Positions 16,551-61,989 of a stretch of 64,000 nucleotides of DNA are shown here, piece by piece. Origin of the DNA: Lingula anatina (Eukaryota; Animalia; Brachiopoda); contig CM120647.1 of the NCBI GenBank assembly GCA_051362555.1, positions 7,378,001 to 7,442,000 on the forward strand. Direction: 5' to 3'. Under the pieces are notes generated by a model that was given only the letters and a program-made list of their open reading frames with translations, was not told the DNA's origin and ran no database searches. Numbering within the stretch: the first letter of the stretch is position 1; every line of letters starts with the position of its first letter. A program made the translations under genes and the position numbers.

Positions 16551-19500
16551 TTAGGGAAAGAGTTGCGGAAACAAACACGCCAATGCCACAAGCAAATTAA
16601 GTACCCAAGGCATTTGACGGGCGCATCCCCTGCTACAGACAAACGTGCCGTGTCCAAATGTAGAAGTAGCCGGCAATGCTGCGTCAGAGACGTTCCCGGA
16701 TGTGCGATTGGACACGACGCTTGCATCAAAAGGTATGTTGCCAATGGACAGCTGGCTGCCAATGTCTTGAATATAACCCGCGACTCGTTCTTCAAATCGT
16801 TCGAACCAACGCAGGCCATCAGGGATGTGGGGGACAGGTTTCACCAGTTTAACTGGTACACGAACAAGGGTGTATTCTCCATGGAACGACGGAGTGCCAC
16901 ATCCTGTTTGTGAGCCTAAGTCAAAACCATACTTCCCTTCGTGTAAGGGGTCGATATAGAGAGAGGACTGGGTCGTGAATAAACTGTCCGAAACGCATTC
17001 TTTGAACAAGACGGCCCAGTCTTGCCAGCTTTGTTTTGGGGTGAGTTTCAGGGTAAGAAGGAACAGCATGTTGACGAAGCCAGTCAGGGGTAACGAACAT
17101 CCCGGGTCATTCTCCTGGCATGAATGCTGTTGGCACGATTTCTAAAAACAAAAGTCAAAAATGTGGATTAACATAACGTATAAATCTAAAGACATACATG
17201 TAGGCCTCCATTGTGTTATAGACCTTTATGATGATAAAAAATCTACGCAGTTTAAGCTTTTTCTACTACATCACAATGGTATCCCCAATACAATGATAAA
17301 ATAGAATTTTCCAAACTGTTTGCAGTGTAAATTTCTGCACATATATCGTTATACGGAAACGATTGTCTGTTCCCACCTTCATTAATGACTGTAATTCTGT
17401 ATTGAATTTTCCATAAAAATTCAATATTTGCTGCGTAAAGGTATAGCGCTCAGATCTATTACCTTTAACAGAAAGTGTAAAGGGATAACAACTTTTTCTT
17501 TAAAATTCAATATTTCACAATAAAAACATTGTAGACAACACATAAATTCCTTTTAACCAATAAAACGGTTATCGCAATTATTCTGAAATCTGTGCTTGCC
17601 GTCGGACCACGTGGACCTGTATGCATGGTTACCTTTCTTAATACATTATTTCGATCTAAAAAATCACACTTTAAAGAAAAAAAAACAAACAAACAAACAA
17701 ACAAACAAACAATTGCAATCGACTAACTTTATATACCGAAAGTAATTCATTAAAATCGGAAAATATGGGAAAATGGTCGTTTACCCCAGAAAAATAGTTT
17801 TTTCAGCATTTTTCCTTTCTCCGCGAAATAAAGAGTTGTTATCCATTTAACCCTCAATCACCTTTCAGGGGCCTCGCAGGCCCGGACCCATGTATCTTTT
17901 GCTCTCTCTTCGTTTGCATGAGGTTTTGAGCCTGTTCCTTTCATGTAATCCTCAAGCAACTTATACCCCATCAGTGGATAAATAATTAGTTTTGAAATGA
18001 TTTACAACATATGTAGAAATTAACTTTTCCAAAAGTTAGTCCCATTTCCTGGAAACCGGGCCTCTTAGGCCCGGTCGCTTGATAATTTTACTTCCACATG
18101 GGATAAATAAGTCCATGTTACCTCAAATAGCTTTGCTATAAAATGTTTTACACAAGCAATATCATGTGTGCTATGACTATCAGTATGGTCAATGAAATCT
18201 GCCTGTGAAAGATTCAAGACCTGGAGAAATTATTATTTATGAGTAATCGGTCACCTGATATGCAGATATCAGTTTAAATCTATCATTATTACATACCTGA
18301 TAGACTGCGCTACCTTTGCGAAACTTTCCATTTTGAGAAAAAAAATGTTTTTCTGCATTTTCCATACACAGTGTATACTCATGCACCCAGGTGGAGGTAA
18401 AGGGAGCAAGGGACTGGTGTAACATGAAAATCTGACTCCCCCAGTCAGATTTTCATGATGAAAATCTGACTCCCCATGAAAATTTGACTCCCCCACCACA
18501 AATGTTCATAAATCTTATTTTATTTGAGTATATGACTGTGATATTGTAGTATGTAAAATGGAGGATACTTTGGCACTTTTTTTAAAGTTTGCAGGTGAAT
18601 ATTTTCATGAAAAAAAATATGAAAATTAAAAATGTGCACTTAACCGCCCATGAAAAAAATATGAAAATTAAAAATGTGCACTTAACCGCCCATTGTCTTC
18701 CCTTTGAAAAAGCTATTTATTTGATATTGGATGATCATTTCTACATCTTTCCTTTAAATTTACTTTATGAAGATTATATTGGAAATATTTGAAAGTTTGA
18801 TGGTAAACTATTGGGTGAAAAAACTAAAAAAAACATGAAAAATAGAAAATTTAAAATGTGCATTTTATCACCCAATAACTCCCCTATGAAAAAGCTATTT
18901 ATTTGATATTTGATGATCATTCTGACATCTTTTCTATTAGGATACTTTATGAAAAATATATTGGAAATATTTAAAAGTTTGATGATAAAATAGTGAGTGA
19001 AAGAATGAAAAATAAATCATGAAAATCTTCATTTTTATACCCATGAGATTTGGATTCCCATGAAGAAAAGGACCTATTTTATATTCAGTCACCATACCAT
19101 TGTTTTCTACATAGTTTGCACAGAGATGTACATTTTGTTATTATTTGAAAGTTTGGTGGTGAAAATTTTGGTGAATATTTTTAAAACAAGTATTCATCTT
19201 ACTACCTGTAGGTTTTGCACTTCCATGTCAAAATGCTACATTTTCAACTCAAGAAATTGGCCCCATCGCCTTTTTACTGAATTCTTCTTATATAGCATAC
19301 CCAGTATTTTACCATTCAAACTTTCAAATATTTCCAATATATTCTTCATTAAGTATCCTTAAAGAAAAGATGTCAGAATGATCAAATATCAAATAGATAG
19401 CCTTTTCATAGGGGAGTCATTGGGTGTTACAATACAAATCTTTAATTTTTCTTATTTTTCATGTGTTTTTTATTATTTTTTTCACCCAATTTTTTAACCA

Positions 19501-22500
19501 TCAAACTTTCAAGTACTTTCAATATATTCCTCATAAAGTATCCTCAAAGAAAAGATGTCAGAATGTTCATCAAATATCAAATAAATAGCTTTTTCATAGG
19601 GGGGTCATTGGGTGTTCGAATATAAATCTTTAATTTTTCTTATTTTTTAATGTGTTTATTATTATTATTATTATTATTATTATTTTTTCACCCAATTTTT
19701 TAACCATTAAACTTTCAAGTACTTTCAATATATTCCTCATAAAGTATCCTCAAAGAAAAGATGTTGAAATGGTAATCAAATGTCAAATAAATAGCTTTTT
19801 CACAGGGGAGTCCTTGGGTGGTAAAATACAAATCTTTAATTTTTTTTTTATTTTTTCATGAAAATCTTCACCTGCAAACTTACAAAAAGTGCCAACGTGT
19901 CCTCCATTATGCATACTACAGGATCATAGTCATTTACTCAAATTAAATTAGATTTTTGAATGTTTTTTGATGGGAGTCAGATTTTCATGGCACACCGGGC
20001 CTCTGAGGCCCGGTTTCAGGGTTAACGTAGGGTTCCATTTCCTTGTGGATGAGGGTTAAACAAGTAAGGCATATTAATACATTCATTCCAAACGCTCCAT
20101 ACTTACGTCGTGCTTATTTTCTTGACATTGCATTTCTTTCTGGAAGTCTATGACAGCGGAGAAACCAAGTGAATCGAATGTTTTGAGATCAGTTTTCTCT
20201 GAAAGAAGAACGTAATGTTAGCGATTGTAACATAAACGTGCTAACTCTGTAAGCCGCCATGCTGGAACACACGTGTATTATTCAAGTCGCTTACAACATT
20301 GTAAAATAAGAGGTGGTCGCTTAAGACAAATAAAATGTTACATCTCCCTCTTTATAATCAACTAAGATTAATAAAGTAAATAAAAGCATGTAAATTAAAA
20401 TAAATTCAGTTTTTGGTGTTCACAGTTCTTTGTGAGTGTTCACTTTAACTTAAAGTCTTTCATGCTCCACAGAGAATGTCTTTAACAGTCCATTTAAATG
20501 AAAGAAAATTAAAGAAAAGTCTTTGGCTGAGTCTTTGCATTATAACTTAAAACTGCTTTAAAGCAAGTTCACATGAAAATCCACATGTAGTATTAAATCA
20601 GGCCCTCTGCTGTGAGGATATGTCCCACATACTGAACTCTGGGCTGACGCACCTGACACTTGTCAAAATTGAGCTTTAGGTTGTATTCAGTAGCTCTCTG
20701 AATAACCTTCTTGAAAATCGAATCATGATGCTCACGATCTGTGCCTGCTATCAATATGTCATCCATTATAGCTGTGGCACCTTCTATGCCTTCAAGCATC
20801 TCATCCATGATTCTCTGAAAAATTTCTGGCGCTGATTTAATACCAAAGGGTAGGCGAAGCCATCTGTACCTGCCAATTGGAGTGTTGAAAGTAGTCAAAA
20901 AGGATGACTGCTCATCAAGCTGTATCTGCAAAAATCCCTGTGTGGCGTCTAACACAGAAAACACTGTGGCTTTTGGAATACTAGCTACAACTTCTTCAAT
21001 AGTTTTCAGTGGATGATGCTCTCTTTTGATTGCATTGTTCAAATCACATGGGTCTATACAGATTCTCACTTTATCATTTCTTAATGAAACAACCATTGAA
21101 CTGACCCATTCAGTTGGCTCATGGACTCGGGTAATGAAGCCATCTGATTCCATTTCCTGTAATTTCTCTACGATGCGTGGCTTCAGTGATGCTGGCTGTC
21201 GTCTGGCTGGATGTATAACTCCCTTTGCTGTTGGGTCTATCTTTATGGTATGCTTACCTGGTAGCGATTTTATTTTCTGGAGATTAAATCTTTGTGCACG
21301 TTTGTTTTTTCTGGGTCTTACATAATTTTCAAGCTTGCCGAATATTGCTTCTGGTTTATCCTCTTCATCTTCTTCCCAAGTGAATGTTTTGTAAATTTCT
21401 CTCCCTTGTTTTCCAATCCACATGCCTAACCATCCTGCCCTTATCTTATCATCTGTTTGTGATAGTGGACCCTTGAAAACGAGCTCAGCATGCTGTCGGA
21501 ATCGAGTAAATTCCAAGTACAAATTTTTAGACTCCCAATCGAAACTGGGTTGCTCGAATGCATACGCCATTTTAATTAGTGTCTCGCACAATTAAAAATG
21601 TTATGTGGCATGTGTAAGGACTCACTAATAGCTTGAAAAGTTCAACTTCTGACACCATGTAACATAAACGTGCTAACTCTGTAAGCCGCCATGCTGGAAC
21701 ACACGTGTATTATTCAAGTCGCTTACAACATTGTAAAATAAGAGGTGGTCGCTTAAGACAAATAAAATGTTACAGCGATCATTTCCAATGAAACTATCTG
21801 TCTACGGAGATCGATGCAACTTCGCAGGGACTCTCACTGAATGCAACCAGATTTAAAGATTTACGCTCCTCCTGTTGCTTCCGACGTACTAGTATAATCA
21901 CCATTTTTCTGTAAAATACTCAGGAAGAGGCGTGTGATCTTTTAAACTGATTGCATTCATCGAAAATCCCTGCGTAGTTGGATCCATCTATGTAGACCGA
22001 CAGTTTCAATATAAACATGTCCTTAGATACCCACAGAGAGTCAGATATACTTCTTCTACGGTTTTCCAAACAACGAAACAATGCATTATGTGAACTTAAG
22101 TTTTATGAATTTAATATAAGTAGGATAAATGTAGAAAGAACCTGGGCTAACATTAAGATGAACGTATTAAGACAACGTTCCGTACCTTTTTTTATTATAA
22201 TAAACACAGATAAAATATCAAGAACACGAATTTAGCCCCCTTTCTCTTTAATAAGTAGACTGAATATACACAGGTAAAACAAATGTTATTGGTTTGACGA
22301 TTAAATGGATCATTTCATGCAATTTTAGGAGCCCCCCCCCCCCCCCCCCAGTTTAAAATTAAGGCAAAACCCATATCGTTTACGACATACCGTGTTCATC
22401 ACACTCTTGAATTTCTACCCCTATCGCACTGGACACTTGACACAGCCAACAAAAAACGTTTCGTCCAAAGCCGTATCCGATATTAGAGTGGTAATAGGTT

Positions 22501-23630
22501 ATGGCCACAGGCTTCGTCTGGCAAAGTGTGACTAGGTCTTCGTCAGCAAAACGACTGCATCGGTCGTCTTCTAGGCCTCTCACGGGGTCATGACTCCCCC
22601 CAGGACCGATGCAAGGACGCCCTGGATAACGCTCCGGGGGTTCATATAGCATCATACAATCGGGCAACGACAAAACCTTTTCCAGAATTCCCGACGAAGT
22701 TGTTGCATTCACAAACGTTTCAAATTGGGTTTCTTCGCAGACTACTTTCGGCGTCCATGCTTGGAAATTCGCGACCCCATGACAGGCGGCACAATAGATG
22801 TTCTTAAAAGTGATATTGTGATCTTTTGACGAGACAGGTAGAATAACATCCATTCTGGTTGAGAGGCCGCTAAACTCACACTTCGCCCTAACTGCTGCGT
22901 CGGCCCATTGCTGCGGACACGACTTAACAACCCAGTAGTACTTGCTGTAAACGTCCAAAATTTCTCGAGTCCCCTGTAACCAACACTCCGTGTCATTCGG
23001 CTCAATTGAAATTACTGTTAGCTTTATGTCTCTGCAGTAACGATCGAGTGGCCAGCAACAATCATCAAAAATAGAACAAACGTCGTCACAGTAGCACGTC
23101 ACCCGTACAACATCATTGGAGACAATACTATTCGTTGTACTGCCCTCCCTAAGGACGCAAAATGGTCGATTAACGGGGTAAGTGAACTGCAGCAATTCAG
23201 ATAACGGGCTTACTGTTGTTGGTAAATCGACTGGATACAATAGCAATGAAATATCTGAACGATTTTCAACCCCTATCCCACTGAAACTTTCTGATGATGA
23301 TGATGATGTGTGGTTGTGCCAGGATAGGGTTCCAGCCAAAGTTAAGGTTTCATTTATTCCTCGAAATCTCTTCTTGCTTTCTGCGTTGTTCCTCCGAAAA
23401 CGTTTTTTCACGTTTGACTTCTCGCTTTTGCTTGAGATAAGTTTCTCTCCATCAGTTTCTGGCATATTTTTGTGAGAATCTGTATGAGGTAAAGGTTTCC
23501 TATCTTCACTCAAAATTGCCAATGAAATACCTTTTGCTCTTTCATTCATCAAATAAGGTTGTAAAACATACTGATTCCAGGTAATAAAGAAAACAACTAA
23601 AGTAACTATTGGAAAGTTCATGTTGAACAT
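16551..23630 (-). CDS. Cys-rich SMB-like/GPCR-ectodomain-like protein, putatively GPI-anchored, copy A (exons 23630-22391, 20198-20107, 17141-16551; ~640 aa)
   Basis: Exon 1 is 1240 nt and ends in phase 1 at GTATGT. Exon 2 is 92 nt (CAG..GTAAGT; EKTDLKTFDSLGFSAVIDFQKEMQCQENKHD). Exon 3 is 591 nt after TTTTTAG (KSCQQHSCQENDPGC...WVLNLLVALACLFPQLFP*). Phases join into one open frame, and the splice sites are conserved in all three copies. The ATG at 23621 (MNFP) is the one shared by all copies. Confidence 0.85.
17851..20055. mobile_element. piggyBac-like (TTAA, CCC..GGG) composite non-autonomous insertion in intron 2 of gene A
   Basis: TTAA-CCCTCAATCAC...GTGGATGAGGG-TTAA, with palindromic GGGCCTC..AGGCCC motifs at ~17868, ~18058 and ~19997. 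A second GGG-TTAA end lies at 20021. Absent from copies B and C (~43410, ~59980). Confidence 0.65.
18416..19996. mobile_element. Fold-back element with long inverted arms and ~170-bp internal repeats
   Basis: GGTGTAACATGAAAATCTGACTCCC ... GGGAGTCAGATTTTCATGGCACACC. 18500-19000 is mirrored by 19300-19960. Local 42-bp tandem duplication at 18607-18693. Confidence 0.75.
20226..21774 (-). mobile_element. Miniature Ty3/Gypsy (Mag-like) LTR retrotransposon, 1549 bp
   Basis: Two 117-bp LTRs, identical by eye (20226-20342 and 21658-21774; TG..CA), and a 5-bp TSD GCGAT. PBS TGGTGTCAGAAGT on the - strand matches the tRNA-Leu 3' end; PPT is AAGAGGGAGA. Empty sites in copies B and C. Confidence 0.95.
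20593..21591 (-). CDS. In-frame fusion of Gag N-terminus and Ty3/Gypsy reverse transcriptase core (no protease, RNase H or integrase)
   Basis: Open 332-codon frame, first ATG at 21570 (MAYAF). Gag-like part WLGMWIGKQGREIYKTF..KLENYVRP. RT motifs PTEWVSSMV, VRICIDP.DLN, FSVLDA.QGF.QI, TTFNTP.GRYRWLRLPFGI.SAPE.FQ, IMDDILI, LKLN.DKC, V.Y.GH. Confidence 0.88.
   Translation of the reverse strand: MCETLIKMAYAFEQPSFDWESKNLYLEFTRFRQHAELVFKGPLSQTDDKIRAGWLGMWIGKQGREIYKTFTWEEDEEDKPEAIFGKLENYVRPRKNKRAQRFNLQKIKSLPGKHTIKIDPTAKGVIHPARRQPASLKPRIVEKLQEMESDGFITRVHEPTEWVSSMVVSLRNDKVRICIDPCDLNNAIKREHHPLKTIEEVVASIPKATVFSVLDATQGFLQIQLDEQSSFLTTFNTPIGRYRWLRLPFGIKSAPEIFQRIMDEMLEGIEGATAIMDDILIAGTDREHHDSIFKKVIQRATEYNLKLNFDKCQVRQPRVQYVGHILTAEGLI
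21789..22008. repeat. Old palindromic MITE in intron 1, shared by all three gene copies (also ~43599-43818, ~60168-60415)
   Basis: TGAAACTATCTGTCTACGGAGATCGATGCAACTTCGCAGGGA.. is mirrored by ..TCCCTGCGTAGTTGGATCCATCTATGTAGACCGACAGTTTCA. Confidence 0.7.
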
Positions 23631-24604
23631 TTTGTCTGCCTTTCTGACAGATCCGAGAATGAGCTGCGTTTGGCTCTCTCTCTCTCACTCTCTACACATA
23701 TATATACCGCATGCAGTGGGCTCAAGTATATATCTCCGGTAACGCCTTGTAATTCTTTTTGCTCAGTGCGTCCCTGCTCCCTCTAATACGTTTAAAAAAG
23801 TAGGAGCTTCAGCCAATCAGGAGGTTTTTCCTTTTAACATTGGTTTTAGATTGATGTTTTTCCCCACAAAAAGACGGGGCTTCTAATAGTAAGTATACGA
23901 TGCACCTAAGATCATAGCATTAAATGCAACAGCATGCGTTGCTTCTTTACAAGACAATGGGAGCATTGTTTTTTAAATTCAATCCAAATATGCATGTTTT
24001 GGTTGGTCTGTTTATGGAATATCACTATTGCCTGCTCTCTGCCTTTTCAATTGTGAAGATGCATCAGTACTGACAAGTATAATTTTTAACTAGCCATTCA
24101 TACAGGGCAAAATACCTGATATCTTGAACAGCATGTGAGCCATTTCTATACATGTATCAAGGACACGAATTTTAAACAGATGAGGCTTTTCTGACTCGAA
24201 CCTCAGATTTGTGTGCACAAATGCTCAAATGAACAAATCCAGCCACGAGTTAAGTACCCGATGTAAAATTACTCGCCATTTGCTTAGCGTTTCATTACAC
24301 CAACCGCTTGTCCGCCTCTCTACCCCTTCGGTGAGTTCGAGGATTAGAGTGTGAATGTTAGCAAAAGAAAAGAGATCATTGTAGACAACAGAATGAATAA
24401 AATGAAATAAAACTTTCGGCGAAATTGTTATATAAGTCTGTAATTTCGAAAAAGAAAAAAAAAACTTTAAGAAGAAGAAGAAAAAAAAAAAAAAAAAAAA
24501 AACAGGTACTAACTACTAGTACTAAATGTAGGAATGGATTTATTAACCAATGGTAAAGATGTTCCCCCAGGAAAATCCATTTCAAGGCCAAAATAAATTA
24601 TTGG

Positions 24605-39800: not shown

Positions 39801-41256
39801 CCTAAGTCTGCCATTCCTAGGAAAGGGAACGAAAAAACGACTACAATTGTAGATTAGATTACGATCTTCATTTTAATATTCAATGACTAAAAATAATATC
39901 AGATTTGCACCATTCACTGCGCCTTTTATAATACTTGGCCTCTTCCCGTTACATAAATACCTTATTTTTTGGTTAGACCGCGCACCAAATGCAACTGTTT
40001 GGGAGCATTCCCATCGAGGAGAGCTGAGGTCTAACAAGGCCGCGACCTAAATATGGCGGACCTACATGAAAGGAAGACCGCTAATCTTTTAATGGTCTCT
40101 CACACGCCTCCCCACGCATTGTCCCTCGACCGGTTGAACTGAGGTGAGATTTAATTACAGTGGTAGTAACAATTATGTTTCCGTTGTAGACCGGTTTAAC
40201 AACGTTTGAAATGTTTTAATCCCTGTCCTGTGAATAGAAAGGGGCGGACAAACAATGGAGAGCAGTGTTAATCATTTCAAAATCCAAACGCACAAACACA
40301 ATAGCTTACGTGGAATAACGCAATACTTAAGACGAGTGAGCCCCATGACGCCGGTTTCTGTGGTCCAGAGCGAGAGCGACGATTAACTGTACCTAGGTGT
40401 AATAAACAGCAGGATACATCAGTCAGAAAATCCCTATTGTTTGTTGCGGCGGTAGGATTATAACTTTAAGAGGCTAGAACCCATGCTACCGCGTGCCACC
40501 GTAGCGAACTGTCTTTTTGTTCACTAGCTTGGCACACGCAGCTGATCATGTTTTAAGTGTTGCTAGCAAACTGCTAGTTTAATTTGGTATCAGTTATTTA
40601 ATTCAATGTGAATTTCCCGTAGTCAAAAATTGAACTAAGTATTGTTTGTTTGATTAATATGCATTAGCGTCAGCATCAACCACAAAAAATTCTTATTGTG
40701 TAGCCTCAATTACTAAAAATATTTATTTGATATGGACAATTGGCTTGAACCAGGTTCACAAGGTTTTGTTAACCTTGTGAATGACACATTCTCCATCGTC
40801 ACCGTTGAATTAACATCATTATTTTACAGCAATAATCTTATTTAACAATCTTATTGTTTAGGCCAGGTTTAAGTTTGTTTTAAGAAATAATCTCAAATGA
40901 AAACAATTTTAGCCAAATTGGTTAAATTATCAGTAAGGATATAAAGGATATATTAAAGGAAGTACCACTGAGTGTGAAAATATCCATCTTATATATATAT
41001 ATTTGCACCAGATTTTTGTCTACCACGTCGAAAATAGCTTGACGTTATTGGGGAACTTTTTCAAGTCTAGGGTCCAGAGAAGTAACGTTAAGGGCACAAA
41101 ACTTCACATCATTGTTTCAGAAAATGTCTGGGTTATAATCTGCTTCTCTCCACAGATTATCGTACTGTTTATTGTCCCAAGTCATTGGATAACCTGTGTC
41201 ATTTTCTTTGCAATAAAAACACCAGTACTGATCTCTGCTTTTCTTAGCGCGTATAG

Positions 41257-43049
41257 TTAGTGAAAGAGTTTAAGAAACAAACACGCCAATCCCACAAAAT
41301 TAAGTGCCCAAGGCACTTGACGGGCGCATCCCCTGCTACAAACAAACGTGCCGTTTCCAGAAGTAGAAGTAGGCGGCACTGCTGCGTCAGAGACGTTCCT
41401 GGATGTGCGATTAAACACGACGCTTGCATCAAAAGGTATGTTGCCAATGGAGAGCTGGTTGCCAATGTCTTGGATATAAGCTGCGACTCGATCTTCAAAT
41501 CGTTCGAACCAACGCAAGCCGTCAGGGATGCGGGGGACAGATTTCGCCAGTTTAACTGGTATACGAACAAGGGTGTATTCTCCATGGAACGACGGGGTGC
41601 CGCATCCTGTTTTTAAGGTATCACCATACATCCCTTCGTGTAAGGGGTCGATGTAGAGCGAGGACTGGGTCGTGAATAAACTGATCGAGATGCATGCTTC
41701 GAACAAGACAACCAAGTCTTGCCAGCTTTGTTTTGGGGTTAGTTTCAGGGTCAGAATGAACTGCATGTTGACGAAGCCGGTCAAGGGTAACAAACATCCC
41801 GGGTCCTTCTCTTGGCATGAATGCTGTTGGCACGATTTCTAAAAACAAAAGTCAAAAATTTTAATCAAAGAAATAAATTCAGCAGTTAAAAAACAAGCGA
41901 TAAAAATGCATATTTTTTTACCCGTTCTAAACTTTTAATTTTTTTTCTTAATTGCTGGCCATCAGAAAAGCGAAAACATATCAATTTTAGGGAGCCATTT
42001 ACGCTGTCAAAAGCATCGCAGGGAAAACCGTATGCAATTTCATCGTGCCGCGCCCGTGCCAAATGTAATTTATATTTGTGTCAGGAAGCGGTAAAATTAT
42101 TATTTTTCATTTGTTTTAATCATTCATGACATAAATCTATAAAAATATTTAAAACATTTATTGTCCAAAAATCGTTGATTAAATTCATTTGTTTGGCGAC
42201 TTAATAAACCCATGCTAAAATCATGCAGCAAGATGCCTGCGACTTTTACTCAGACCAGGCTCAGATAAACCCATCGTACTAGCTGGATCGATCCAAATCT
42301 GCGGCGGATTTTCACTAAAATGCATTCATTGTAATCAGCTTCATTATCTGACATGCATCCTCGAGTATAAGAACTTCCGAGCGCCTGGCGCCGATGCCGA
42401 TAGTTAATTTGCTCCTTCCTTGTCGAGCACCCGTGTCAGACAATTAAGCTGTTTACATTAACTGCACTGAAGTGATAATTCCCACAGAGTTGGATCGATC
42501 CAGGTAGTACGATGGGTTAATCTGCAGGCATTATACTGCCAGTGCGAAGGGTTTATCTGACCCCCCCCCCCCCTCTTTACGGACCGCCTGAATTTTGCAA
42601 GATTCGATTTTCTATTCACCGATCAAGAAGAAATAAGCACCAAGATTTCCTAACAGCTTTATTCCTACTGCCTATGTCCTCCCTTGTCCTAAAGGGGAGC
42701 AAGTGGGTCCCTCACAGTATGATGGTCCCGCCTGACCCACTGAAAACATGGGCCTCATCTGCATCCAAAGGACGTTTTTGATCCAACGGCATAGGCCTAC
42801 ATTGTGTGATAGACCTTTATGATGATTAACAATCTAGGTAGTTTAAGCTTTTTTACTTCACAATGGTATCCCTAATACAATGATAAAATGGATTTTTCCA
42901 AACAGTTTGCAGTGTAAATTTCTGCACATATATCGTTATTGGTAAACGAATGCCTGTTCCCCTCTCCATTAATGACTGTTATTCTGTATTGAATTTTCCA
43001 TGAAAATTCAATATTTGTTGCGTAAAGGTATAGCGCTCAGATCTATTAC

Positions 43050-43118: not shown

Positions 43119-45388
43119 ATTGTAGACAACACACAAAATTGTACCAAATTTCTTTCAACCACCAATACGGTTATCGCAGTTATTCTGAAATCTGTGCTTG
43201 CCGTCGGACCACTTGGACCTGTATGCATGGTTACCTGTCTTAACAGATTATTTTGTTTCTAAAAGATCACACTTTAAAGAAAAAAATGTAATTGACTAAC
43301 TTTCAATGCCGAAAGTAATTCATTAAAACCGGAAAGTATGGGAAAATGGTCGTTTACCCCAGAAAAATTGTCTTTTCGGCATTTTCCTTTCCCCATCAAA
43401 TAAAGAGTTGTTATCCTTTTCAACAACTTGAGTATATTAATACATTCATTCCAAACGTTCCATGCTTACGTCGTGCTTATTTTCTTGACATCTCATTTCT
43501 TTCTGGAAGTCTATGACAGCGGAGAAACCAAGTGAATCTAATATCTTGAGATCACTTGCCTCTGAAAGAAGAACATACTGTTAGTGCTCATTTCCAATGA
43601 AACTATCAGTCTACGGAAATCGATGCAACTTCGCAGGGACTCTCACTGAATGCAACGAAATTAAAAGATTTACACTCCTCCTGTTGCTTCTGACGTACTA
43701 GTATAATCACCAATTTTTCTGTATAATACTCAGGAGGAGGCTTGTCATCTTTTAAACTGATTGCATTCATCGAAAATCCCTGCGTAGTTGGATCGATCTA
43801 TGTAGACCGACAGTTTTATTATAAAGGAGTCCTTAGATACCCACAGAGAGTCAGATGTGCTTCTTCTACGGATTTCCCAACAATGAAACAATGCATTAGG
43901 TGAACTTAAGTTTTATGAATTTAGCATAAGTAGGATAAATGTAGAAAGAACCTGGCCTGACATTAAGATGAACGTATTAAGGCAACGTTTCATACCTTTT
44001 TATTACAAAAAACAAAGAAAAAATAACAAAAACGCGAATTTAGCCTTCCTTTCCCTTTAATAAGTAGATTGAATATACACAGGTAAAACAAATGGATCAT
44101 TTCATGCAATTTTAGGAGCCCCCCCAGTTTAAAATTAAGGCAAAACCTATATCTTTTTCGACATACCGTGTTCATCACATTCCTGAATTTCTACCCCTAT
44201 CGCACTGGGCAGTTGACACAGCCAACAAAAAACGTTTCGTCCATAGCCGTATCCGATAAGAGAGTGGTAATAGGTTATGGACACAGGCTTCGTCTGGCAA
44301 AGTGTGACTAGGTCCTTGTCGGCATAATAATTGCATCGGTCGTCTTGTAGGCCTCTTACGGGGTCATGACTCCCCCCAGGACCGATGCAAGGACGCCCTG
44401 GGTAACGCTCCGGGGATTCAAATAGCACCATACAATCGGGCAACGAGAATACCTTTTCCAGAATTCCCGAGGAAGTTGTTGCATTCACAAACGTTTCGAA
44501 TTGGGTTTTTTCGCAGACTATTTTGGGCGTCCACGCTTGGAAATTCACGACGCCATGACAGGCGGCACAATAGATATTTTTAAAAGTGACATTGTGCTCT
44601 TTTGACGAAACAGGTAGAAGAACATCCGTTTTGGTTGGGATGCCGCTAAACTCACACTTCGCCCTAACCGCTGCGTCGGTCCATTGCTGCGGACACGACT
44701 TAACGACCCAGTAGTACTTGCTGTAAACGCCCAAAATTTCTTGAGTGCCCTGTAACCAACACTCCGTGTGATTTGGCTCGATAAACATTTCTGTTTGCTT
44801 TATGTCTCTGCAGTAACGATCGAGTGGCCAGCAACAATCATCAAAAATAGAACAAACATCGTCACAGTAGCACGTCACCCGTACATTGTCTTTATAGTCA
44901 ACACTTTTCGTTGCACTGCCCTCAATAAGGACGCAAAACGGTCGATTAACGGGGTAAGTGAGCAGCAATTCATCCAGCGGGCTTACTGTTGTTGGTAAAT
45001 CGACTGCATACAATGGCGATGAAATACCTGAACGATTCTCAACCCCTATTCCACTGAAAGATTCTGATGATGATGTGCTGTTGTGCCAGGAAAGGGTTCC
45101 AGTCAAAGTGAAGGTTTCATTTATTCCTCGAAATCTCTTTTTGCTTTCTGCGTTGTTCCTCCGGAAACGTTTTTTCACGTTTGACTTCTCGCTTTTGCTT
45201 GAGATATGTTTCTTTCCATCAATTTCTGACATATTTTTGTGAGAATCTGTATCTGTTAGAGGTTTCCTATCTTCACCCAAAATTGCCAATGAAATACCTT
45301 TTGCTCTTTGATTCATCAAGTAAGGTTGTAAAACATACTGGTTCCAGGTAATAAAGAAAATGACTAAAGTAAATAATGGGAAGTTCAT
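41257..45388 (-). CDS. Cys-rich putatively GPI-anchored protein, copy B (exons 45388-44167, 43561-43470, 41838-41257; ~631 aa)
   Basis: Same splice sites and phases as copy A. Open throughout, ending ..CSRGCARQVPWALNFVGLACLFLKLFH*. The ORF-track start at 45397 is GTG; the first ATG is at 45388. Confidence 0.85.
41870..42790. mobile_element. Insertion in intron 2 shared by copies B and C (58400-59400) but absent from A; contains a ~265-bp inverted repeat
   Basis: CAGATAAACCCATCGTACTAGCTGGATCGATCCAA (42262) is mirrored by TTGGATCGATCCAGGTAGTACGATGGGTTAATCTG (~42490-42524). Copy A runs from ~17165 directly to TAGGCCT..ATTGTGT at ~17200. Confidence 0.6.
43034..43097 (+). repeat. Poly(A) tract of ~64 nt
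   Basis: Directly visible; the paralogous site at ~59681-59693 has only a short A run. Confidence 0.9.
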
Positions 45389-45455
45389 GTTGAACACTTT
45401 GCCTGTCTTTCTGACAATTCCTTGAATGAGCAGTGTTTGGCTCTCTTTCTCTTTC

Positions 45456-45489
<34 letters not shown>

Positions 45490-46297: not shown

Positions 46298-46591
46298 AGG
46301 CATAACAACTCTTCGTATGAGATCTATATTTCACAATAAATTAAAAAAAAAAAAAACTTACAGAAATACAGAAAAAATCTACGGCGGTTACCACATATTC
46401 TGTAATCTGTTCTTGCTATCGGAGCACGTGACCTCCAAGGATGTAGTAGATGTAGTAATTGATTATATTAAAAAAAACTTTAAGAAAAAACAACAGGTTC
46501 TAACTTTAAATGTAGGGATGGATTTATTAACCAATCTGGTTTACCCCCAGGAAAGTCCATTTCAAGACCAAAATGAATTGTTGTTATCCCC
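46298..46591. mobile_element. Kolobok-like TTAA MITE (paralogous copy at 62944-63262)
   Basis: TTAA-AGGCATAACAACTCTTCGTATGAGATC...TTGTTGTTATCCCC-TTAA; same family as 2659-2995. Confidence 0.75.
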
Positions 46592-53000: not shown

Positions 53001-55910
53001 CATCTTGGACAATAAAGAAATTGTTTTATCTGCTTCAGCAAAGTGTATTATATCTTTGTAGAGGAGAAGATTATGGTTTGCCTTAATACAACTAAATGTC
53101 TCACCTAACACAATATACAATATTTTGTCTCAACCAACACGGTTGAAACTGTCTCCTCAAACAAAATGTTCATATATCATCTAGCACAACATGCTTTGTA
53201 TGGCATGACATACCACTTTCGTGCACATGTTTTATTTTATATAATAGACAAAGTAATACTGTGATTTATCATACTGATGCCAGCCTACGGAAGTCTTCTT
53301 AGGTGCTCTTGCTTTGTAATTCAAGGCAACTTTGTAAGTCGGCCATTTTTGCGGCCATGACCTTGGCTTCTTCCGTGTGACAAAATGTGCAAGCAATGTT
53401 TATGCAGGTGCAGCTAATGCATTCTGCCTTAATAGTCTATAATCACTTTTTAATAAATAACAAAATCATTGCAGAACCGCGTAATTACTAAATTAAAAGT
53501 TTATTACCATTTTAAAACTTTGGGAATGTGTTAATTACTTTGTTTTCTTTTTATTTGGTTATTAAAAAGTAGGCCCCTTTGAACTGCAAAGTAAATAAAG
53601 ACTAACGTGATGGAATTAAATGCTAATATGTTAATTAAATTTTATTTTCATCACCTTATCATATTCTATCTCATAGATGCAAATTGAACATTTGACTATT
53701 TTGAAAAAAAATGAAAATGTTGCTTAATTGATATGCTTTCATCATTATTATTGTTTTAATTATTGTCTCCCCCTCCCCATTCCCCTTTTCAAATTATTCT
53801 CTATATTCATTTCTTTTCTTTTTTTCAGGTAGATTTACAAATATTGTCTCCCAGTGGCCTGGAAGTGTCCACACTGCGCACATTTTTTCCACCTCAACAC
53901 CAGAAACCAGGGGATATATTTTAAAACTTTTCAAACAAACATTAATATTTCACATATATGTAGATATAAAAGTACTGATCCAGATTAAGATTATTTGTGT
54001 ACCGTTTCAAACTGTAATCATCTATTCGTTATGTGTTTTGTAATTGAAAAGCAATGTGTTCAATTATTGTGTTCAATGTGATACCCTTGTATAAATAACA
54101 TATTACATGTACATTTTCATCAGCACATAATGCACAAGTTGTGAAATAAATAATAAAATTGAAAATAGTAAGTAATGTAAAGTAATTTCTCTACATTTCT
54201 TTTAGAATATAATATTCACATGTAAAATTATTTATGAACAACAATTAACACTACAAGTTAAAAATGAATTTTCAACTACAATGCATTTGAAGTATACTGA
54301 CTTCTGTGGACTTGTAAGCCCAAGTTACTTTTGTTCATTTCAGTGTTTGATTGCAACAATTAAGTCTTGTATTTGAAACAAAGATGAACAGTCCATAAAA
54401 ATGAATAATATATCAAAAGTAATTATTCTATTGTCAATTTCTTGGATTTGTTTTATCAGTAAAGTTATTTAGCAACAGTGCCTGATGGGTAACCAAATAT
54501 GGACATAGACCCAGTTGTTCATAGCAACTATCTTCAAAGTGAGGTTGTTCTTAGCAATTATCCACTGTATAGTGATTTTATCCACCGTTTAGCTATCCGC
54601 CTGTTTATACGCTCTTTATACAATGCATATTTATCCACCGTTTAGCTATACACCGTATAGGGCATTTACACACTGTATAGAGTTATCCGGCGTATACTGC
54701 TATACGGCTTTCATACAACCCAGTCCTGGTGTGTTGTGAACCTACAAAGACCAACAGATCCCTGGATCAAGTATGGCCGACCTACTTGAATGCTTGTTGT
54801 GAAATCCCTGCAGGGAATCTATTAATTGTCTTAAAAGGGGTTGCACAGCAAGCTTTTAAGTGGGTTGGCCATATTTGTTCTGCAGGTCACCTAGTTGACA
54901 CTATGAACAGCATGTTAACCAGAGCAGTGCACAAAGGTCAACTAACACAATATCTCAACTTATACAATGCATAATGTCTCATCTAACACGATATTCTGTG
55001 AAAATATCCTTTGTTAACCTGTACTATGTACACTGGCTCATCAAACACGACATCTTGGGACAATACAGTAATTATTTTATCTGTTTCAGTAAAGTGTATT
55101 ATGTCTTTGTTGAGGGGATGGTCAAAGTTTGCCTTTGTACATTTAAATGTCTCACCTAGCACAATGTTTTGTCTCAACCAACACGGTTCACACTGTCTCC
55201 TCAAAGAAAATGACCATATCTCATCTAGCACAGTGTGTTTTGTCTGACTTGACAATTCACTTTCAAGTACATATTTTATTTTATGTAATAGACAAAATAA
55301 CACTATGATTCATTAAATTAATTCCAGGCTACAAAAGTCTTCTTAGGTGCTCACGCTTTGTTAGCTAATGGTTATGTCATGTCCAGAGTGGGAACTTCCA
55401 AGATCTCACTCCTGGTTAAGGCGTATGATGTGCCAGTCATGGTTTGTTGTGACACCTACAAGTTCTGTGAGAGAGTAAAGGCAGAATCTTTTGTTGCTAA
55501 TGAATTAGGTGAGTATTTTTTTTCTTGTCGCCTTCACAGCAGTGGACTTAAGGGATTGTTGCACAATCCCCGCGGTGAATCTATTCAGTGTCTATCAGTG
55601 GATTAGGTGGCACGCTTTTAAGTAGGTCGACCATATTTGATCCATGGATCTATTAGTCCACTATTAGTCAATTTGTTCTGAATGCGACCTGTCTCTCTCT
55701 CTCATCATGGTGTTTAACGATGCTCAGCAGACTGTAGCATAATCATCAACAGAAGACGAACAAAACAGCCACCAAAAATCAAACATAGTCTGTTTCTTTA
55801 AGATGGGCTAGAAATTTAACATACTTAAATCACAATCCAGGAGACCCTGGTGACTTGGTAAGACTCACAAAAATGAAACATACTTGGACAACTGGAAACT
55901 GTGCAAGAAC
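50010..55910 (+). pseudogene. EIF2B4: eIF2B-delta pseudogene, copy 3
   Basis: Exon remnants at 50010-50061, ~50257-50302 (EAQRAAK), 50539-50746, 51039-51157 ([21 protein letters not shown]), 51552-51600, 52112-52226, 52365-52540, 55328-55508 ([43 protein letters not shown]) and ~55841-55910 (DPGDL). The start exon and most of the last exon are deleted. There is a partial internal duplication at ~53280/54720-55320. Confidence 0.92.
53320..54720 (+). mobile_element. Harbinger transposon remnant within a duplicated EIF2B4 exon
   Basis: After an AG acceptor at ~53828 the sequence reads RFTNIVSQWPGSVHTAHIF, which matches the Harbinger/HARBI1 DDE_Tnp_4 motif F.N..A.WPGS.HD..IF. Subterminal TATCCACCG/TATACACCG repeats lead to ..TTCATACAACCCAGTC next to EIF2B4 CTGGTGTGTTGTGAA. 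Confidence 0.65.
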
Positions 55911-57786: not shown

Positions 57787-60700
57787 TTAGTGAAAGAGTT
57801 TAAGAAACAAACACGCCAATCCCACAAAATTAAGTGCCCAAGGCACTTGACGGGCGCATCCCCTGCTACAAACAAACGTGCCGATTCCAGAAGTAGAAGT
57901 AGTCAGCAATGCTGCGTCAAAGACGTTCCTGGATGTGCGATTAAACATGACGCTTGCATCAAAAGGTATGTTGCCAATGGAGAGCTGGTTGCCAATGTCT
58001 TTGATATAAGCCCCGACTCGATCTTCAAATCGTTCGAACCAACGCAGGCCGTCAGGGATGCGGGGGACAGGTTTCGCCAGTTTAACTGGTATACGAACAA
58101 GGGTGTATTCTCCATGGAACGACGGGGTGCCGCATCCTGTATTTAAGGTATCACCATACAATCCTTCGTGTAAGGGGTCGATGTAGAGCGAGGACTGGGT
58201 AGTGAATAAACTGATCGAGATGCATGCTTCGAACAAGACAACCAAGTCTTGCCAGCTTTATTTTGGGATTAGTTTCAGGATCAGAATGAACTGCATGTTG
58301 ACGAAGCCGGTCAAGGGTAACAAACATCCCGGGTCATTCTCTTGGCATGAATGCTGTTGGCACGATTTCTAAAAACAAAAGTCAAAAATGTGAATCAAAG
58401 AAATAAAGTCAGCAATTAAAAAACAAACGATAAAAATGCATATTTTTTTACCCGTTCTAAACTTTTAATTTTTTTTCTTAATTGCTGGCCATCAGAAAAG
58501 CGAAAACAAATCAATTTTAGGGAGCTATTTACGCTATCAAAAGCATCGCAGGGAAAACCGTATGCCGTATGCCGCGCCCTTGCCAAATGTAATTTAGATT
58601 TGTGTCAGGAAGCGGTAAAATTATTATTTTTTATTTGTTTTAGTCATTCATGACATAAATCTATAAAAAATATTTAAAACATTTATTGTCCAAAAATCGT
58701 TGATTAAATTCATTTGTTTGGCGACTTAATAAACCCATGCTAAAATCATGCAGCATGATGCCTGCGACTTTTGCTGAGACCAGGCTCAGATAAACCCATC
58801 GTACTAGCTGGATCGATCCAAATCTGCGGCGGATTTTCACTAAATTGCATTCATTGTAATCAGCTTCATTATCTGACATGCATCCTCGAGTATAAGAACT
58901 TCTGAGCGCCTGGCGCCGATGTCGATAGTTAATTTGCCCCTGGTCGAGCACCCGTGTCAGACAATTAAGCTGATTACATTAACTGCACTGAAACGATAAT
59001 CCCCACAGTGTTGGAGCGATCCAGCTAGTACGATGGGTTAATCTGCAGGCATTATACTGCTAATGCAAAGGGTTTATCTGACCCCCCCCCCCTCTTTCCG
59101 GACCGACTGAATATTGCAAGATTCGATTTTCTATTCACCGATCAAGAAGAAATAAGCACCAAGATTTCCAAACAGCTTTATTCCTACTGCCTATGTCCTC
59201 CCTTAATCTACCCACCACCAATCCTATTTATACCCTTCTCTACATTAAAATATTGCCTATTAATAATAAACTTCAGGTCTTATCAACTCCCACGAGAAAT
59301 CCTAAAGGGGAGACAGTGGGTCCCTCACAGTATGATGGTCCCGCCTGACCTACTGAACACATGGGCCTCATCTGCGTCCAAAGGACGTTTGTGATCCAAC
59401 GGCATAAATCTAAAGGCATAGGCCTACATTGTGTGATAGACCTTTATGATTATTAATAATCTAGGTAGTTTAAGCTTTTTTACTTCATAATGGTATCCCT
59501 AATACAATGATAAAATGCATTTTTCCAAACAGTTTGCAGTGTAAATTTCTGCACATATATCGTTATTGGTAAACGAATGTCTGTTCCCCTCTCCATTAAT
59601 GACTGTTATTCTGTATTGAATTTTCCATGAAAATTCAATATTTGTTGCGTAAAGGTATAGCGCTCAGATCTATTACCTTTAATAAAAAAAAAACATTGTA
59701 GACAACACACAAAATTGTACCAAATTTCTTTCAACCACCAATACGGTTATCGCAGTTATTCCGAAATCTGTGCTTGCCGTCGGACCACTTGGACCTGTAT
59801 GCATGGTTACCTTTCTTAATAGATTATTTTGTTTCTAAAAAATCACACTTTAAAGAAAAAACGTAATTCACTAACTTTGAATGCCGAAAGTAATTCATTA
59901 AAACCGGAAAGTATGGGAAAATGGCCGTTTACCCCAGAAAAATTGTCTTTTCGGCATTTTCCTTTCAAATAAAGAGTTGTTATCCTTTTCAACAACTTGA
60001 GTATATTAATATATTCATTCCAAACTTTCCATGCTTACGTCGTGCTTATTTTCTTGACATCGCATTTCTTTCTGGAAGTCTATGACAGCGGAGAAACCAA
60101 GTGAATCTAATATCTTGAGATCACTTGCCTCTGAAAGAACAACATACTGTTAGTGCTCATTTCCAATGAAACTATCAGTCTACGGAAATCGATGCAACTT
60201 GGCAGGGACTCTCACTGAATGCAACGAAATTTAAAGATTTACACTCCTCCTGTTGCTTCCGAGTATAACTAGTATAACTAGTATAACTAGTATAACTAGT
60301 ATAACCACCAATTTTTCTGTATTATACTCAGGAGGAGGCTTGTAATCTTTTAAACTGATTGCATTCATCGAAAATCCCTGCGTTGTTGGATCAATCTATG
60401 TAGACCGACAGTTTAAATATAAACGAGTCCTTAGATACCCACAGAGAGTCAGATGTGCTTCTTCTACGGATTTCCCAACAATGAAACAATGCATTAGGTG
60501 AACTTAAGTTTTATGAATTTAGCATAAATAAGATAAATGAAGAAAGCACCTGGCCTGACATTAAGATGGACGTATTAAGGCAACGTTTCATACCTTTTTT
60601 ATTATAAAAAACCCAGAAAAAATAACAAAAACGCGAATTTAGCCTCCCTTTCTATTTAATAAGTAGATTGAATATACACAGGTAAAACAAATGGATCATT

Positions 60701-61989
60701 TCATGCAATTTTAGGAGCCCCCCCCCAGTTTAAAATTAAGGCAAAACCTATATCGTTTTCGACATACCGTGTTCATCACATTCCTGAATTTCTACCCCTA
60801 TCGCACTGGACAGTTGACACAGCCAACAAAAAACGTTTCGTCCATAGCCGTATCCGATATTAGAGTGGTAATAGGTTATGGACACAGGCTTCGTCTGGCA
60901 AAGTGTGACTAGGTCCTTGTCGGCATAATAATTGCATCGGTCGTCTTGTAGGCCTCTTACGGGGTCATGACTCCCCCCAGGTCCGATGCAAGGACGCCCT
61001 GGATAATGCTCCGGGGGTTCAAATAGCACCATACAATCGGGCAACGAGAATACCTTTTCCAGAATTCCAGAGGAAGTTGTTGCATTCACAAACGTTTCGA
61101 ATTGGGTTTCTTCGCAGACTATTTTGGGCGTCCACGCTTGGAAATTCACGACGCCATGACAGGCAGCACAATAGATGTTTTTAAAAGTGACATTGTGCTC
61201 TTTTGACGAAACAGGTAGAAGAACATCCGTTTTGGTTGGGAGGCCGCTAAACTCACACTTCGCCCTAACCGCTGCGTCGGTCCATTGCTGCGGACACGAC
61301 TTAACGACCCAGTAGTACTTGCTGTAAACGCCCAAAATTTCTCGAGTGCCCTGTAACCAACACTCCGTGTGATTTGGCTCAATAAAAATTTCTGTTTGCT
61401 TTATGTCTCTGCAGTAACGATCGAGTGGCCAGCAACAATCATCAAAAATAGAACAAACATCGTCACAGTAGCACGTCACCCGTACATTGTCTTGATAGTG
61501 AACACTTTTCGTTGCACTGCCCTCAATAAGGACGCAAAACGGTCGATTAACGGGGTAAGTGAGCAGCAATTCATCCAACGGGCTTACTGTTGTTGGTAAA
61601 TCGACTGCATACAATGGCGATGAAATACCTGAACGATTCTCAACCCCTATTCCACTGAAAGATTCTGATGATGATGTGCTGTTGTGCCAGGAAAGGGTTC
61701 CAGTCAAAGTGAAGGTTTCATTTATTCCTCGAAATCTCTTTTTGCTTTCTGCGTTGTTCCTCCGAAAACGTTTTTTCACGTTTGACTTCTCGCTTTTGCT
61801 TGAGATATGTTTCTTTCCATCAGTTTCTGACATATTTTTGTGAGAATCTGTATCTATTAAAGGTTTCCTATCTTCACCCAAAATTGCCAATGAAATACCT
61901 TTTGCTCTTTGATTCATCAAGTTAGGTTGTAAAACATATTGGTGCCAGGTAATAAAGAAAATAACTAAAGTAAATAATGGGAAGTTCAT
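57787..61989 (-). CDS. Cys-rich gene copy C (exons 61989-60768, 60130-60039, 58368-57787) with a premature stop at 58260-58258; ~474-aa truncated product or young pseudogene
   Basis: Splice sites are intact. Codon 37 of exon 3 is TAA where A and B have CAA (PKQSW). The downstream frame stays open to the ancestral stop at 57787. Confidence 0.8.

What the first reader, a model, noticed from the sequence alone, without database searches (positions are those of the whole stretch)
16551..61989. Tandem family of Cys-rich GPCR-ectodomain-like proteins that lack a 7TM and end in a GPI-like signal
Seen: a previously unjoined 92-nt middle exon links the 416-aa and 172/178-aa ORFs into one ~630-640 aa protein in all three units. 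It has a hydrophobic N-terminus, a basic/Ser-rich pro-region, CYCDDVCSIFDDCC, CPxxW..KCE..PVSS...TFKNIYCAACHG, GRNVFCWLC, FSAVIDF, then a Ser/Thr-rich stalk and a terminal hydrophobic stretch with no cytoplasmic tail. Knowledge: the somatomedin-B-like motif and NxYCAxC modules typify ectodomains of invertebrate adhesion/Methuselah-like family-B GPCRs, where a 7TM normally follows. Small residues plus a spacer plus a terminal hydrophobic segment is the GPI-signal pattern. Inference: an expanded family of GPI-tethered stand-alone ectodomains (decoy or co-receptors, recognition or matrix proteins). This is the best candidate for an undescribed system in the window.
Basis: partly seen in the sequence, partly recalled or inferred. 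Interest (0 to 1): 0.8.

Follow-up and report, generated by a model that had tools for sequence, protein, structure and literature searches.

The report
Anchored GPCR ectodomains without the receptor
Three neighbouring copies of a weakly expressed animal gene (likely a lamp shell's) encode the cysteine-rich outer part of an orphan G-protein-coupled receptor family but no seven-helix signalling part; two copies end in a predicted lipid (GPI) anchor and likely act as surface decoys or co-receptors, while the third carries an early stop.

Summary
Mostly real, less new than claimed. Three tandem three-exon genes lie on the minus strand, with GT-AG introns and a 92-nt middle exon. RNA reads support intron 1 (3 reads, 1 of 8 runs); intron 2 was not seen. 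The Cys-rich core is homologous to the ectodomain of somatomedin-B/DUF8401 family-B GPCRs (639 hits; 79 of the best 150 carry a 7TM). No 7TM lies in the window. Most of exon 3 is predicted, at low confidence, to be a ferredoxin/SEA-like domain, not a Ser/Thr stalk. The tail fits a GPI signal by my own rule. Two RefSeq Lingula proteins already have the same layout, and mollusc-dominated Atlas clusters list no 7TM family. Ten literature searches found no description of the 7TM-less form. dN/dS is 0.37-0.46 in the core. Verdict: a new variant of a known receptor-ectodomain family. The anchor is predicted; ligand and decoy/co-receptor role are untested.

The parts
22391..23621 (-). U1 exon 1 (coding part): hydrophobic N-terminus, basic/Ser-rich pro-region with RFRR, SMB-like motif, two NxxCxxC modules
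   Evidence: Pfam Somatomedin_B E 0.0057, under the curated cut-off
20107..20198 (-). U1 exon 2 (92 nt, FSAVIDF motif)
   Evidence: splice sites and frame
16551..17141 (-). U1 exon 3: predicted ferredoxin/SEA-like domain, short stalk, GPI-like signal (16634-16554), stop
   Evidence: fold inferred from U2
44167..45388 (-). U2 exon 1 (coding part)
   Evidence: query
45158..45169 (-). RFRR furin-type site in U2 (residues 74-77; same in U1 23402-23391 and U3 61770-61759)
   Evidence: consensus R-x-K/R-R recalled; absent from the three Lingula database paralogs
44201..44884 (-). U2 Cys-rich core (residues 169-396): SMB-like motif plus two NxxCxxC (DUF8401-type) modules
   Evidence: AlphaFold model of residues 131-407, pLDDT 78, pTM 0.77
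44531..44686 (-). First CPxxW..C..PV..N.YCAAC module; weak Kazal/follistatin-like fold match
   Evidence: 10 of 13 rows are Kazal or follistatin domains, Z 2.0-2.9; a lead only
43470..43561 (-). U2 exon 2 (92 nt)
41257..41838 (-). U2 exon 3 (terminal)
   Evidence: no consensus donor-like site found inside it
41401..41781 (-). Predicted beta-alpha-beta-beta-alpha-beta (ferredoxin/SEA-like) domain, U2 residues 458-584
   Evidence: low-confidence model, pLDDT 39.9; fold search dominated by ferredoxin-like domains; similar trend for the Lingula paralog
41260..41337 (-). GPI-like signal of U2: candidate omega S606 or G608, short spacer, 17-residue hydrophobic end, no cytoplasmic tail
   Evidence: own rule; no trained predictor was available
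41168..41173 (-). AATAAA 84 nt after the U2 stop (also U1 16465-16460, U3 57695-57690)
60768..61989 (-). U3 exon 1 (coding part)
   Evidence: exon reads in runs X1 and X6
60039..60130 (-). U3 exon 2 (92 nt); junction with exon 1 seen in RNA
   Evidence: joint 60130/60768, 3 reads
57787..58368 (-). U3 exon 3, interrupted by a premature stop
58258..58260 (-). Premature TAA in U3 (codon 475)
   Evidence: U3-branch replacements are denser after it (8 of 16 in the last 156 codons, one-sided p 0.026)

Best explanation
U1 and U2 encode the cysteine-rich ectodomain of somatomedin-B/DUF8401 family-B GPCRs with no seven-helix domain, and are predicted to be furin-trimmed, GPI-anchored surface proteins that likely bind the same kind of extracellular protein partner as their seven-helix relatives and so likely act as decoys or co-receptors. 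Shown: gene structure, intron 1 splicing, low sense-strand expression of this family, purifying selection on the core, homology of the core to 7TM-bearing receptors, no 7TM in the window. Inferred: entry into the secretory path by the N-terminal hydrophobic stretch (cleaved or not), removal of the first 77 residues at RFRR, transamidase cleavage at S606 or G608 with GPI addition, a ferredoxin/SEA-like membrane-proximal domain as spacer, and ligand or receptor binding by the disulfide-rich core. U3 is most likely a decaying copy; if made, it would be a secreted 474-aa form. The three copies arose by recent tandem segmental duplication.
For: Core homology: 639 proteins at E<=0.001; 27 of the first 60 have Pfam 7tm_2, 79 of 150 by my own 7TM profile. 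No 7TM in 2811 six-frame segments of the window (best E 0.23). Exon 3 ends in a stop with AATAAA 84-92 nt later in all three copies and has no consensus donor-like site. GPI rule: U1, U2, P0001 and P0004 pass; only 1 of the other 148 hits and 154 of 6000 random cut points pass. The best hit (P0001, 36% identity, 615 aa) and P0004 (586 aa) are RefSeq Lingula anatina models that are collinear to the end and also lack a 7TM; P0001 groups with U1-U3 (SH-aLRT 98 and 95). dN/dS 0.37-0.46 in the core. Exon reads lie only on the strand expected for a minus-strand RNA in 4 of 8 runs. Precedent for the mechanism: Drosophila Cirl 1TM isoforms bind and are needed by the 7TM form (bioRxiv 10.1101/2023.01.11.521585, abstract).
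Against: No ligand, partner or tissue is known for any member. The GPI rule is my own, written after seeing the tails, and is no trained predictor. Two Cys flank the candidate omega site in U1-U3. The exon 2-exon 3 junction and the 3' end were not seen in RNA, and coverage is a handful of reads; 4 of 8 runs had none on exons 1 and 3. The 7 exon-3 reads of X6 match none of the three copies, so the expressed gene may be a fourth paralog or a divergent allele. No diversifying selection was seen. The region 590-end has dN/dS 1.2-1.5 on few sites. Trees do not tell whether the 7TM was lost or never there.
Confidence: 0.42

Rival explanations
1. Stand-alone anchored surface protein with a job of its own (adhesion, matrix binding, microbe recognition, or Kazal/follistatin-like binding of proteases or growth factors), unconnected with GPCR signalling; the module may even predate its fusion to a 7TM.
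For: de Mendoza et al. (PMC4768249) read SMB ectodomains in this receptor clade as repeated acquisitions. Atlas clusters of 139 and 149 members, mostly molluscs, list SMB and DUF8401 but no 7tm_2. 10 of 13 fold matches of the core are Kazal/follistatin domains.
Against: Kazal matches are Z 2.0-2.9 over about 40 residues, within noise; no Kazal family among the 25 listed of 34 Pfam families for 94 aligned members. Most full-length relatives are 7TM receptors. Very low expression in the sampled runs does not suggest a bulk matrix protein, though tissues are unknown.
Confidence: 0.3
2. The tail is not a GPI signal: the proteins are secreted or held by a short C-terminal helix, or by an uncleaved N-terminal anchor.
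For: The hydrophobic end is moderate (19-residue KD mean 1.49 in U2, 1.77 in U1). No trained GPI predictor was run. The N-terminal stretch has no close cleavage site.
Against: Tail without cytoplasmic residues, small-residue triplet at the usual distance, and the same pattern in two distant Lingula paralogs with unrelated tail sequence. A proline lies inside the U1 tail.
Confidence: 0.13
3. All three copies are decaying by-products of a segmental duplication; the working gene lies elsewhere.
For: U3 has a stop; the duplicated unit also carries broken eIF2B-delta-like exons; the best-covered reads match none of the three copies; dN/dS near 0.5 may be inherited from before the duplication.
Against: U1 and U2 differ by about 9% in exon 1 yet both keep open frames, all splice sites and 29 Cys; indels between them keep the frame; X1 has 6 reads at 99% or more identity to the U3 stretch.
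Confidence: 0.09
4. These exons are the 5' part of ordinary 7TM receptors whose membrane exons lie outside the window or are reached by other splicing.
For: 79 of 150 relatives have a 7TM; the exon 2 donor could join another exon; RNA coverage is too low to exclude it.
Against: Each duplicated unit is complete within the window and holds no 7TM; exon 3 is terminal by sequence; the segment just before TM1 in the receptors read has no visible counterpart here; Lingula database models end the same way.
Confidence: 0.06

Closest known systems
Somatomedin-B-bearing adhesion-like / Methuselah-like family-B GPCRs (Nematostella NvX cluster, planarian PARF1, amphioxus SMB adhesion expansion; Pfam SMB + DUF8401 + 7tm_2)
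   Same: Homologous Cys-rich ectodomain core: SMB-like CxCDxxC..DCC motif and two NxxCxxC modules. Lineage-specific expansions are reported for the receptors (PMC4768249, PMC2246102, PMC3261222, PMC6408891).
   Different: No 7TM and no cytoplasmic tail; a GPI-like end instead. That NvX/PARF1 carry DUF8401 is my inference from the shared SMB + 7tm_2 layout; I did not compare their sequences.
Lingula anatina LOC106160040 (XP_013391996.1) and LOC106172569 (XP_013408800.1), uncharacterized RefSeq models
   Same: Same layout: hydrophobic N-terminus, SMB-like + DUF8401 core, a further domain, short stalk, hydrophobic end.
   Different: Only 36% identical in the core; clear signal-peptide cleavage sites; no RxK/RR site. 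No function assigned.
Drosophila Cirl 1TM isoforms (and GPR126 1TM isoforms)
   Same: Membrane-tethered GPCR ectodomain without 7TM; binds and modulates the 7TM form (abstract; review passage). A working model, not a family relation.
   Different: Splice isoforms of one gene with GAIN domain and a true TM helix; here separate genes, another ectodomain, predicted GPI anchor.
Secreted Frizzled-related proteins (recalled, not tested)
   Same: Separate genes encoding only the ligand-binding ectodomain of a 7TM receptor family, acting as decoys or modulators.
   Different: Unrelated domain (Frizzled CRD), secreted, ligand known.
Kazal / follistatin domains
   Same: Weak fold match of the first NxxCxxC module; PV...T.F.N..C spacing resembles the Kazal pattern (recalled).
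   Different: Z under 3; the Cys that follows PV in Kazal domains (recalled) is Ser here; no Pfam match.

Membership tests
SMB/DUF8401 family-B (Mth-like, NvX/PARF1-type) GPCR | 7tm_2 seven-helix domain | tested here: not met
   No Pfam 7tm_2 in exon 1 or 3 at E<=1; own 7TM profile finds nothing under E 0.23 in the window. Exons outside the window not testable.
SMB/DUF8401 family-B (Mth-like, NvX/PARF1-type) GPCR | Ectodomain homologous to that of the receptors | tested here: met
   639 hits at E<=0.001, 79 of the best 150 with 7TM; conserved Cys pattern over 94 rows.
SMB/DUF8401 family-B (Mth-like, NvX/PARF1-type) GPCR | Somatomedin B domain (PF01033) | tested here: inconclusive
   U1 17.4 bits, E 0.0057, under the 23.1 cut-off, second half of the model only; 72 of 94 aligned relatives match at E<=0.5.
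SMB/DUF8401 family-B (Mth-like, NvX/PARF1-type) GPCR | DUF8401 (PF28443) domain | tested here: inconclusive
   It never appeared in my Pfam scans, whose library seems to predate it; the best hit P0001 carries it as a precomputed label and its nearest Atlas clusters do. Indirect only.
Adhesion GPCR (class B2) | GAIN/GPS domain | tested here: not met
   No GPS/GAIN Pfam match in exons 1 or 3, none among the listed families for 94 relatives.
Arthropod Methuselah receptors | Methuselah_N ectodomain (PF06652, 10 Cys) | tested here: inconclusive
   No Pfam match and not listed in fold searches; an unlisted fold is not excluded.
GPI-anchored protein | C-terminal hydrophobic end without cytoplasmic tail, small omega/omega+2 residues, spacer | tested here: met
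   Own rule: U1 and U2 pass (U3 only if read through); 1 of 148 other hits and 154 of 6000 random cuts pass. Rule written after seeing the tails.
GPI-anchored protein | N-terminal ER signal | tested here: inconclusive
   13-residue hydrophobic stretch, no close (-3,-1) site by the recalled rule; SignalP not available.
GPI-anchored protein | GPI attached (PI-PLC release) | not testable with these tools
   Needs expression.
Kazal-type inhibitor domain | Kazal fold with three disulfides and a reactive loop | tested here: inconclusive
   Z 2.0-2.9, 37-50 residues aligned; no Pfam match; module was not folded alone.
SEA domain | Ferredoxin-like fold next to the membrane | tested here: inconclusive
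   Model pLDDT 39.9; ferredoxin-like matches, best Z 8.5 (MscS-type channel); TMPRSS6 and Gpr126 chains Z 5.7, tied with many unrelated domains.

The most novel reading that the evidence does not exclude
Lophotrochozoans keep a dedicated, undescribed class of genes for GPI-anchored SMB-DUF8401 ectodomains that pair with, or compete with, the orphan Methuselah-like/NvX-type GPCRs: a gene-level counterpart of Cirl-1TM or sFRPs. The DUF8401 core is a tandem Kazal-derived module with no solved relative, and the U3 stop converts one copy into a secreted decoy.
Probability: 0.2. Interest if true: 0.7.

Novelty: new variant of a known kind. Interest (0 to 1): 0.4.

Why it matters
SMB/DUF8401 receptors are a large invertebrate GPCR group for which I found no ligand or ectodomain structure. 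Natural stand-alone ectodomains show that the module folds and is selected without the 7TM. They are ready-made soluble constructs for structure work and ligand fishing. If they regulate their 7TM relatives, they add a separate-gene decoy/co-receptor layer to class B GPCR biology. As it stands this is an architecture variant with no shown function.

Tried and rejected
Word-indexed protein searches gave nothing for exon 1 or for exon 3 among longer proteins, and 2 proteins for the 7-row alignment; these are weak negatives. No RNA holder was listed in the index; raw-read runs of the same species label were laid instead. High read depth inside the introns comes from short dispersed repeats with loose ends, not from this gene. 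Sequence search of PDB with exon 1 gave only vitronectin SMB at E 6 and a chance hit; the profile search hit 7TM domains only, through the homologs' columns. Foldseek found no match at E<=0.001 for the core and its second look none at Z>=2; this does not show a new fold. Aligning exon 3 to full-length relatives misaligned and was dropped. Profile-profile comparison of the exon-3 domain with the inserted domain of 11 hand-picked relatives (10 with a 7TM) was not significant (E 0.08-0.48; shuffled scores up to 12.3 against 15.1 and 9.9), so homology of that domain to the receptors is not shown; to the Lingula paralogs it is weak (E 0.007). The 69 other 7TM-less hits were not counted as stand-alone proteins: most end without a hydrophobic tail, and the 10 looked up come from unnamed Logan/ENA contigs, 8 of them under 2.6 kb. 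Both trees are quick, unfinished searches with open deep nodes (121 of 153 rows kept for coverage; 46 hand-picked rows). The Lingula genome paper has no somatomedin, Methuselah or GPCR mention in its text or one held supplement; PMC3655951 passages gave nothing on 7TM-less Mth genes. Earlier scan notes hold no like finding. No complex prediction was run: no partner from this genome was in hand.
Full report
Gene structure. The window is AT-rich animal DNA (37% GC). Three copies of one gene lie on the minus strand. Each has a long first coding exon (1222-1231 nt), a 92-nt exon and a last exon of 582-591 nt, with GT donors and AG acceptors whose phases keep the frame. U1 gives 637 aa and U2 631 aa. 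Exon identities are 97-99% between U2 and U3 and 89-92% to U1. All three share an AATAAA 84-92 nt after the stop, and exon 3 holds no consensus donor-like site.

Origin of the array. Self-comparison shows three larger tandem units, about 700-30100, 32500-48770 and 48770 to the window's end. Each also carries pieces of an IF-2B-family gene on the plus strand (Pfam E 1.6e-10 and 4.2e-18; further copies; that it is the delta subunit is recalled). The array is thus a recent segmental triplication, not an old diversified cluster.

Selection. Nei-Gojobori dN/dS is 0.54, 0.60 and 0.53 for the three pairs (p 0.0003, 0.003, 0.049), and 0.46, 0.37, 0.45 in the Cys core; the last 45 codons give 1.2-1.5 on few sites. 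With U1 as outgroup, 8 of 16 replacements on the U3 branch fall in the 156 codons after the stop (one-sided p 0.026), against 2 of 12 on the U2 branch; the direct contrast is not significant (p 0.11). This mildly favours a real stop with relaxation behind it.

Expression. Eight RNA runs of the same species label were laid on the U3 stretch at 90% likeness; 6-30% of each run was read. Four runs (X1, X2, X3, X6) have a few reads on exons 1 or 3, all in the orientation expected for a minus-strand RNA in a stranded library; four (X4, X5, X7, X9) have none there. X6 has 3 reads from 3 starts across intron 1, exactly at the predicted sites. No joint for intron 2 reached the 3-read threshold, and no read covers the stop or 3' UTR bins. 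Up to seven X6 reads on exon 3 carry six alleles found in none of the three copies; of the eight listed differences from U3, four are silent. They come from a fourth paralog or a divergent allele. Expression of the family is shown; which copy is expressed is not.

Family. Pfam gives only a sub-threshold somatomedin B match. The exhaustive search with U2 exon 1 gave 639 proteins at E<=0.001. Of the first 60, 27 have 7tm_2; of 150, 79 match a 7TM profile built from 17 of them. Named 7TM-bearing hits come from gastropods, a chiton, a cockroach and a sea cucumber. The best hit carries the Pfam label PF28443/DUF8401, and Atlas clusters combine SMB, DUF8401 and, in some, 7tm_2. SMB-bearing adhesion-like or Methuselah-like receptors are in print for Nematostella, amphioxus, acorn worm and planarians (PMC4768249, parts 1-2 of 3 read; PMC2246102 and PMC3261222, passages); tandem expansion is reported for octopus Methuselah-like receptors (PMC6408891, passages).

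No 7TM, GPI-like end. The 7TM profile finds nothing in 2811 stop-free segments of the window. U1 and U2 end in a short polar stalk, a small-residue triplet (S-R-G or G-C-A), and 17 mostly hydrophobic residues with no tail. My rule for GPI signals passes U1, U2, and 3 of 150 hits: P0001, P0004 and one partial 7TM protein; 154 of 6000 random cut points pass. The rule was written after I saw the tails and is no substitute for a trained predictor. P0001 and P0004 are RefSeq models of Lingula anatina, collinear with U1/U2 to the end. P0001 forms a supported group with U1-U3; P0004 falls elsewhere with weak deep support. Earlier unchecked notes call this genome Lingula, so these are probably paralogs within one genus: the layout is old within that lineage (36% identity) but not shown across phyla. 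The two Atlas clusters nearest P0001 (139 and 149 members, mostly molluscs) list no 7tm_2, a hint that 7TM-less forms are wider spread, though such clusters may hold fragments.

N-terminus. A 13-residue hydrophobic stretch follows the first Met, without a close signal-peptidase site by the recalled (-3,-1) rule. All three copies have RFRR at 74-77, a furin-type site absent from the database paralogs. Cleavage there would free the mature protein whether or not the signal is removed. This is inference.

Structure. The core (U2 131-407, 94-row alignment) folds with pLDDT 78 and pTM 0.77. Foldseek finds nothing. The wide search gives 13 rows at Z 2.0-2.9, ten of them Kazal or follistatin domains matching the first NxxCxxC module (some of these family names are recalled). 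This is below the noise level the tool states and is a lead only. Exon 3 (4-row alignment) folds poorly (pLDDT 39.9) but in beta-alpha-beta-beta-alpha-beta order and matches ferredoxin-like domains, with TMPRSS6 and Gpr126 chains at Z 5.7 among many unrelated rows. The Atlas model of P0001's C-terminal part also meets such folds, at TM under 0.5. So exon 3 is likely a folded domain plus a 25-residue stalk, not a Ser/Thr stalk. Several 7TM relatives have an inserted domain at the same place, but homology could not be shown.

Mechanism. Most likely U1 and U2 are GPI-tethered ectodomains that bind a protein partner through the disulfide-rich core and modulate signalling of seven-helix relatives, as Cirl 1TM isoforms do for Cirl (bioRxiv 10.1101/2023.01.11.521585, abstract and outline; PMC13197933, passages). 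I put 0.42 on the whole chain; about 0.7 on the anchored stand-alone protein alone, whatever its partner. A GPCR-independent surface role is the main rival (0.3). No ligand, partner or tissue is known, and a 7TM paralog in this genome was not demonstrated.

Novelty. Ten full-text searches (listings only unless named above) found no paper on 7TM-less or GPI-anchored members, and none of the listed papers holds the term DUF8401; subscription journals are mostly not covered, and supplements other than that of PMC4595640 were not searched. The layout exists in RefSeq as 'uncharacterized'. These three genes have no close protein record (best hit 36%). Verdict: a new variant of a known kind, interest 0.4.

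Noticed in passing
window 3123-3266, 4275-4468, 9665-9745, 37092-37235, 37992-38241, 52319-52550, 55322-55510 (+): Fragments of an IF-2B-family gene (delta-like, recalled), repeated in each duplicated unit; no unit shows a full set and the 38 kb copy has a frameshift. Likely pseudogene pieces copied with the segment.
   Followed up: partly
window 20596-21591 (-): 332-codon reverse-transcriptase-bearing ORF (Pfam RVT_1 E 2.4e-28), an LTR-retrotransposon-like piece inside U1 intron 1; explains the longer intron.
   Followed up: partly
window 24601-27355 (-): Broken LINE-like element upstream of U1: ORF1-like, endonuclease-like and RT-start-like pieces (recognised from recalled motifs; no significant Pfam match for these families).
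   Followed up: no
window 5063-7517: Long inverted repeats (439 nt at 90% and 170 nt at 94%) around a 1.2-kb core: MITE or foldback-like element.
   Followed up: no
window 11650-12800: Tandem pair of a 588-nt unit whose frame resembles the start of a Harbinger-type transposase (recalled; no Pfam match).
   Followed up: no
window 18490-19975: Two arrays of 182-206-nt units in opposite orientation inside U1 intron 2.
   Followed up: no
window 58786-58829 and 58954-58989: Short intron segments hit by many RNA reads with loose ends and opposite-strand joints: ends of an abundant dispersed palindromic repeat.
   Followed up: no
window 58257-58262 (-): U3 has an AATAAA overlapping its premature stop, and two nearby Thr-to-Ile changes make the new C-terminus more hydrophobic (KD 1.81 against 1.43); the truncated end does not pass the GPI rule.
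   Followed up: partly
window 58002-58092, run X6: Reads with alleles matching none of the three copies: a fourth paralog or a divergent haplotype is the best-expressed form in that sample.
   Followed up: partly
about 200 nt upstream of each start codon (near 23820, 45590, 62250): A conserved CTGATTGGCTGA (CCAAT-box-like) motif and possible small upstream exon signals; the frame is open for about 20 codons above the Met, so an upstream coding exon cannot be excluded.
   Followed up: no
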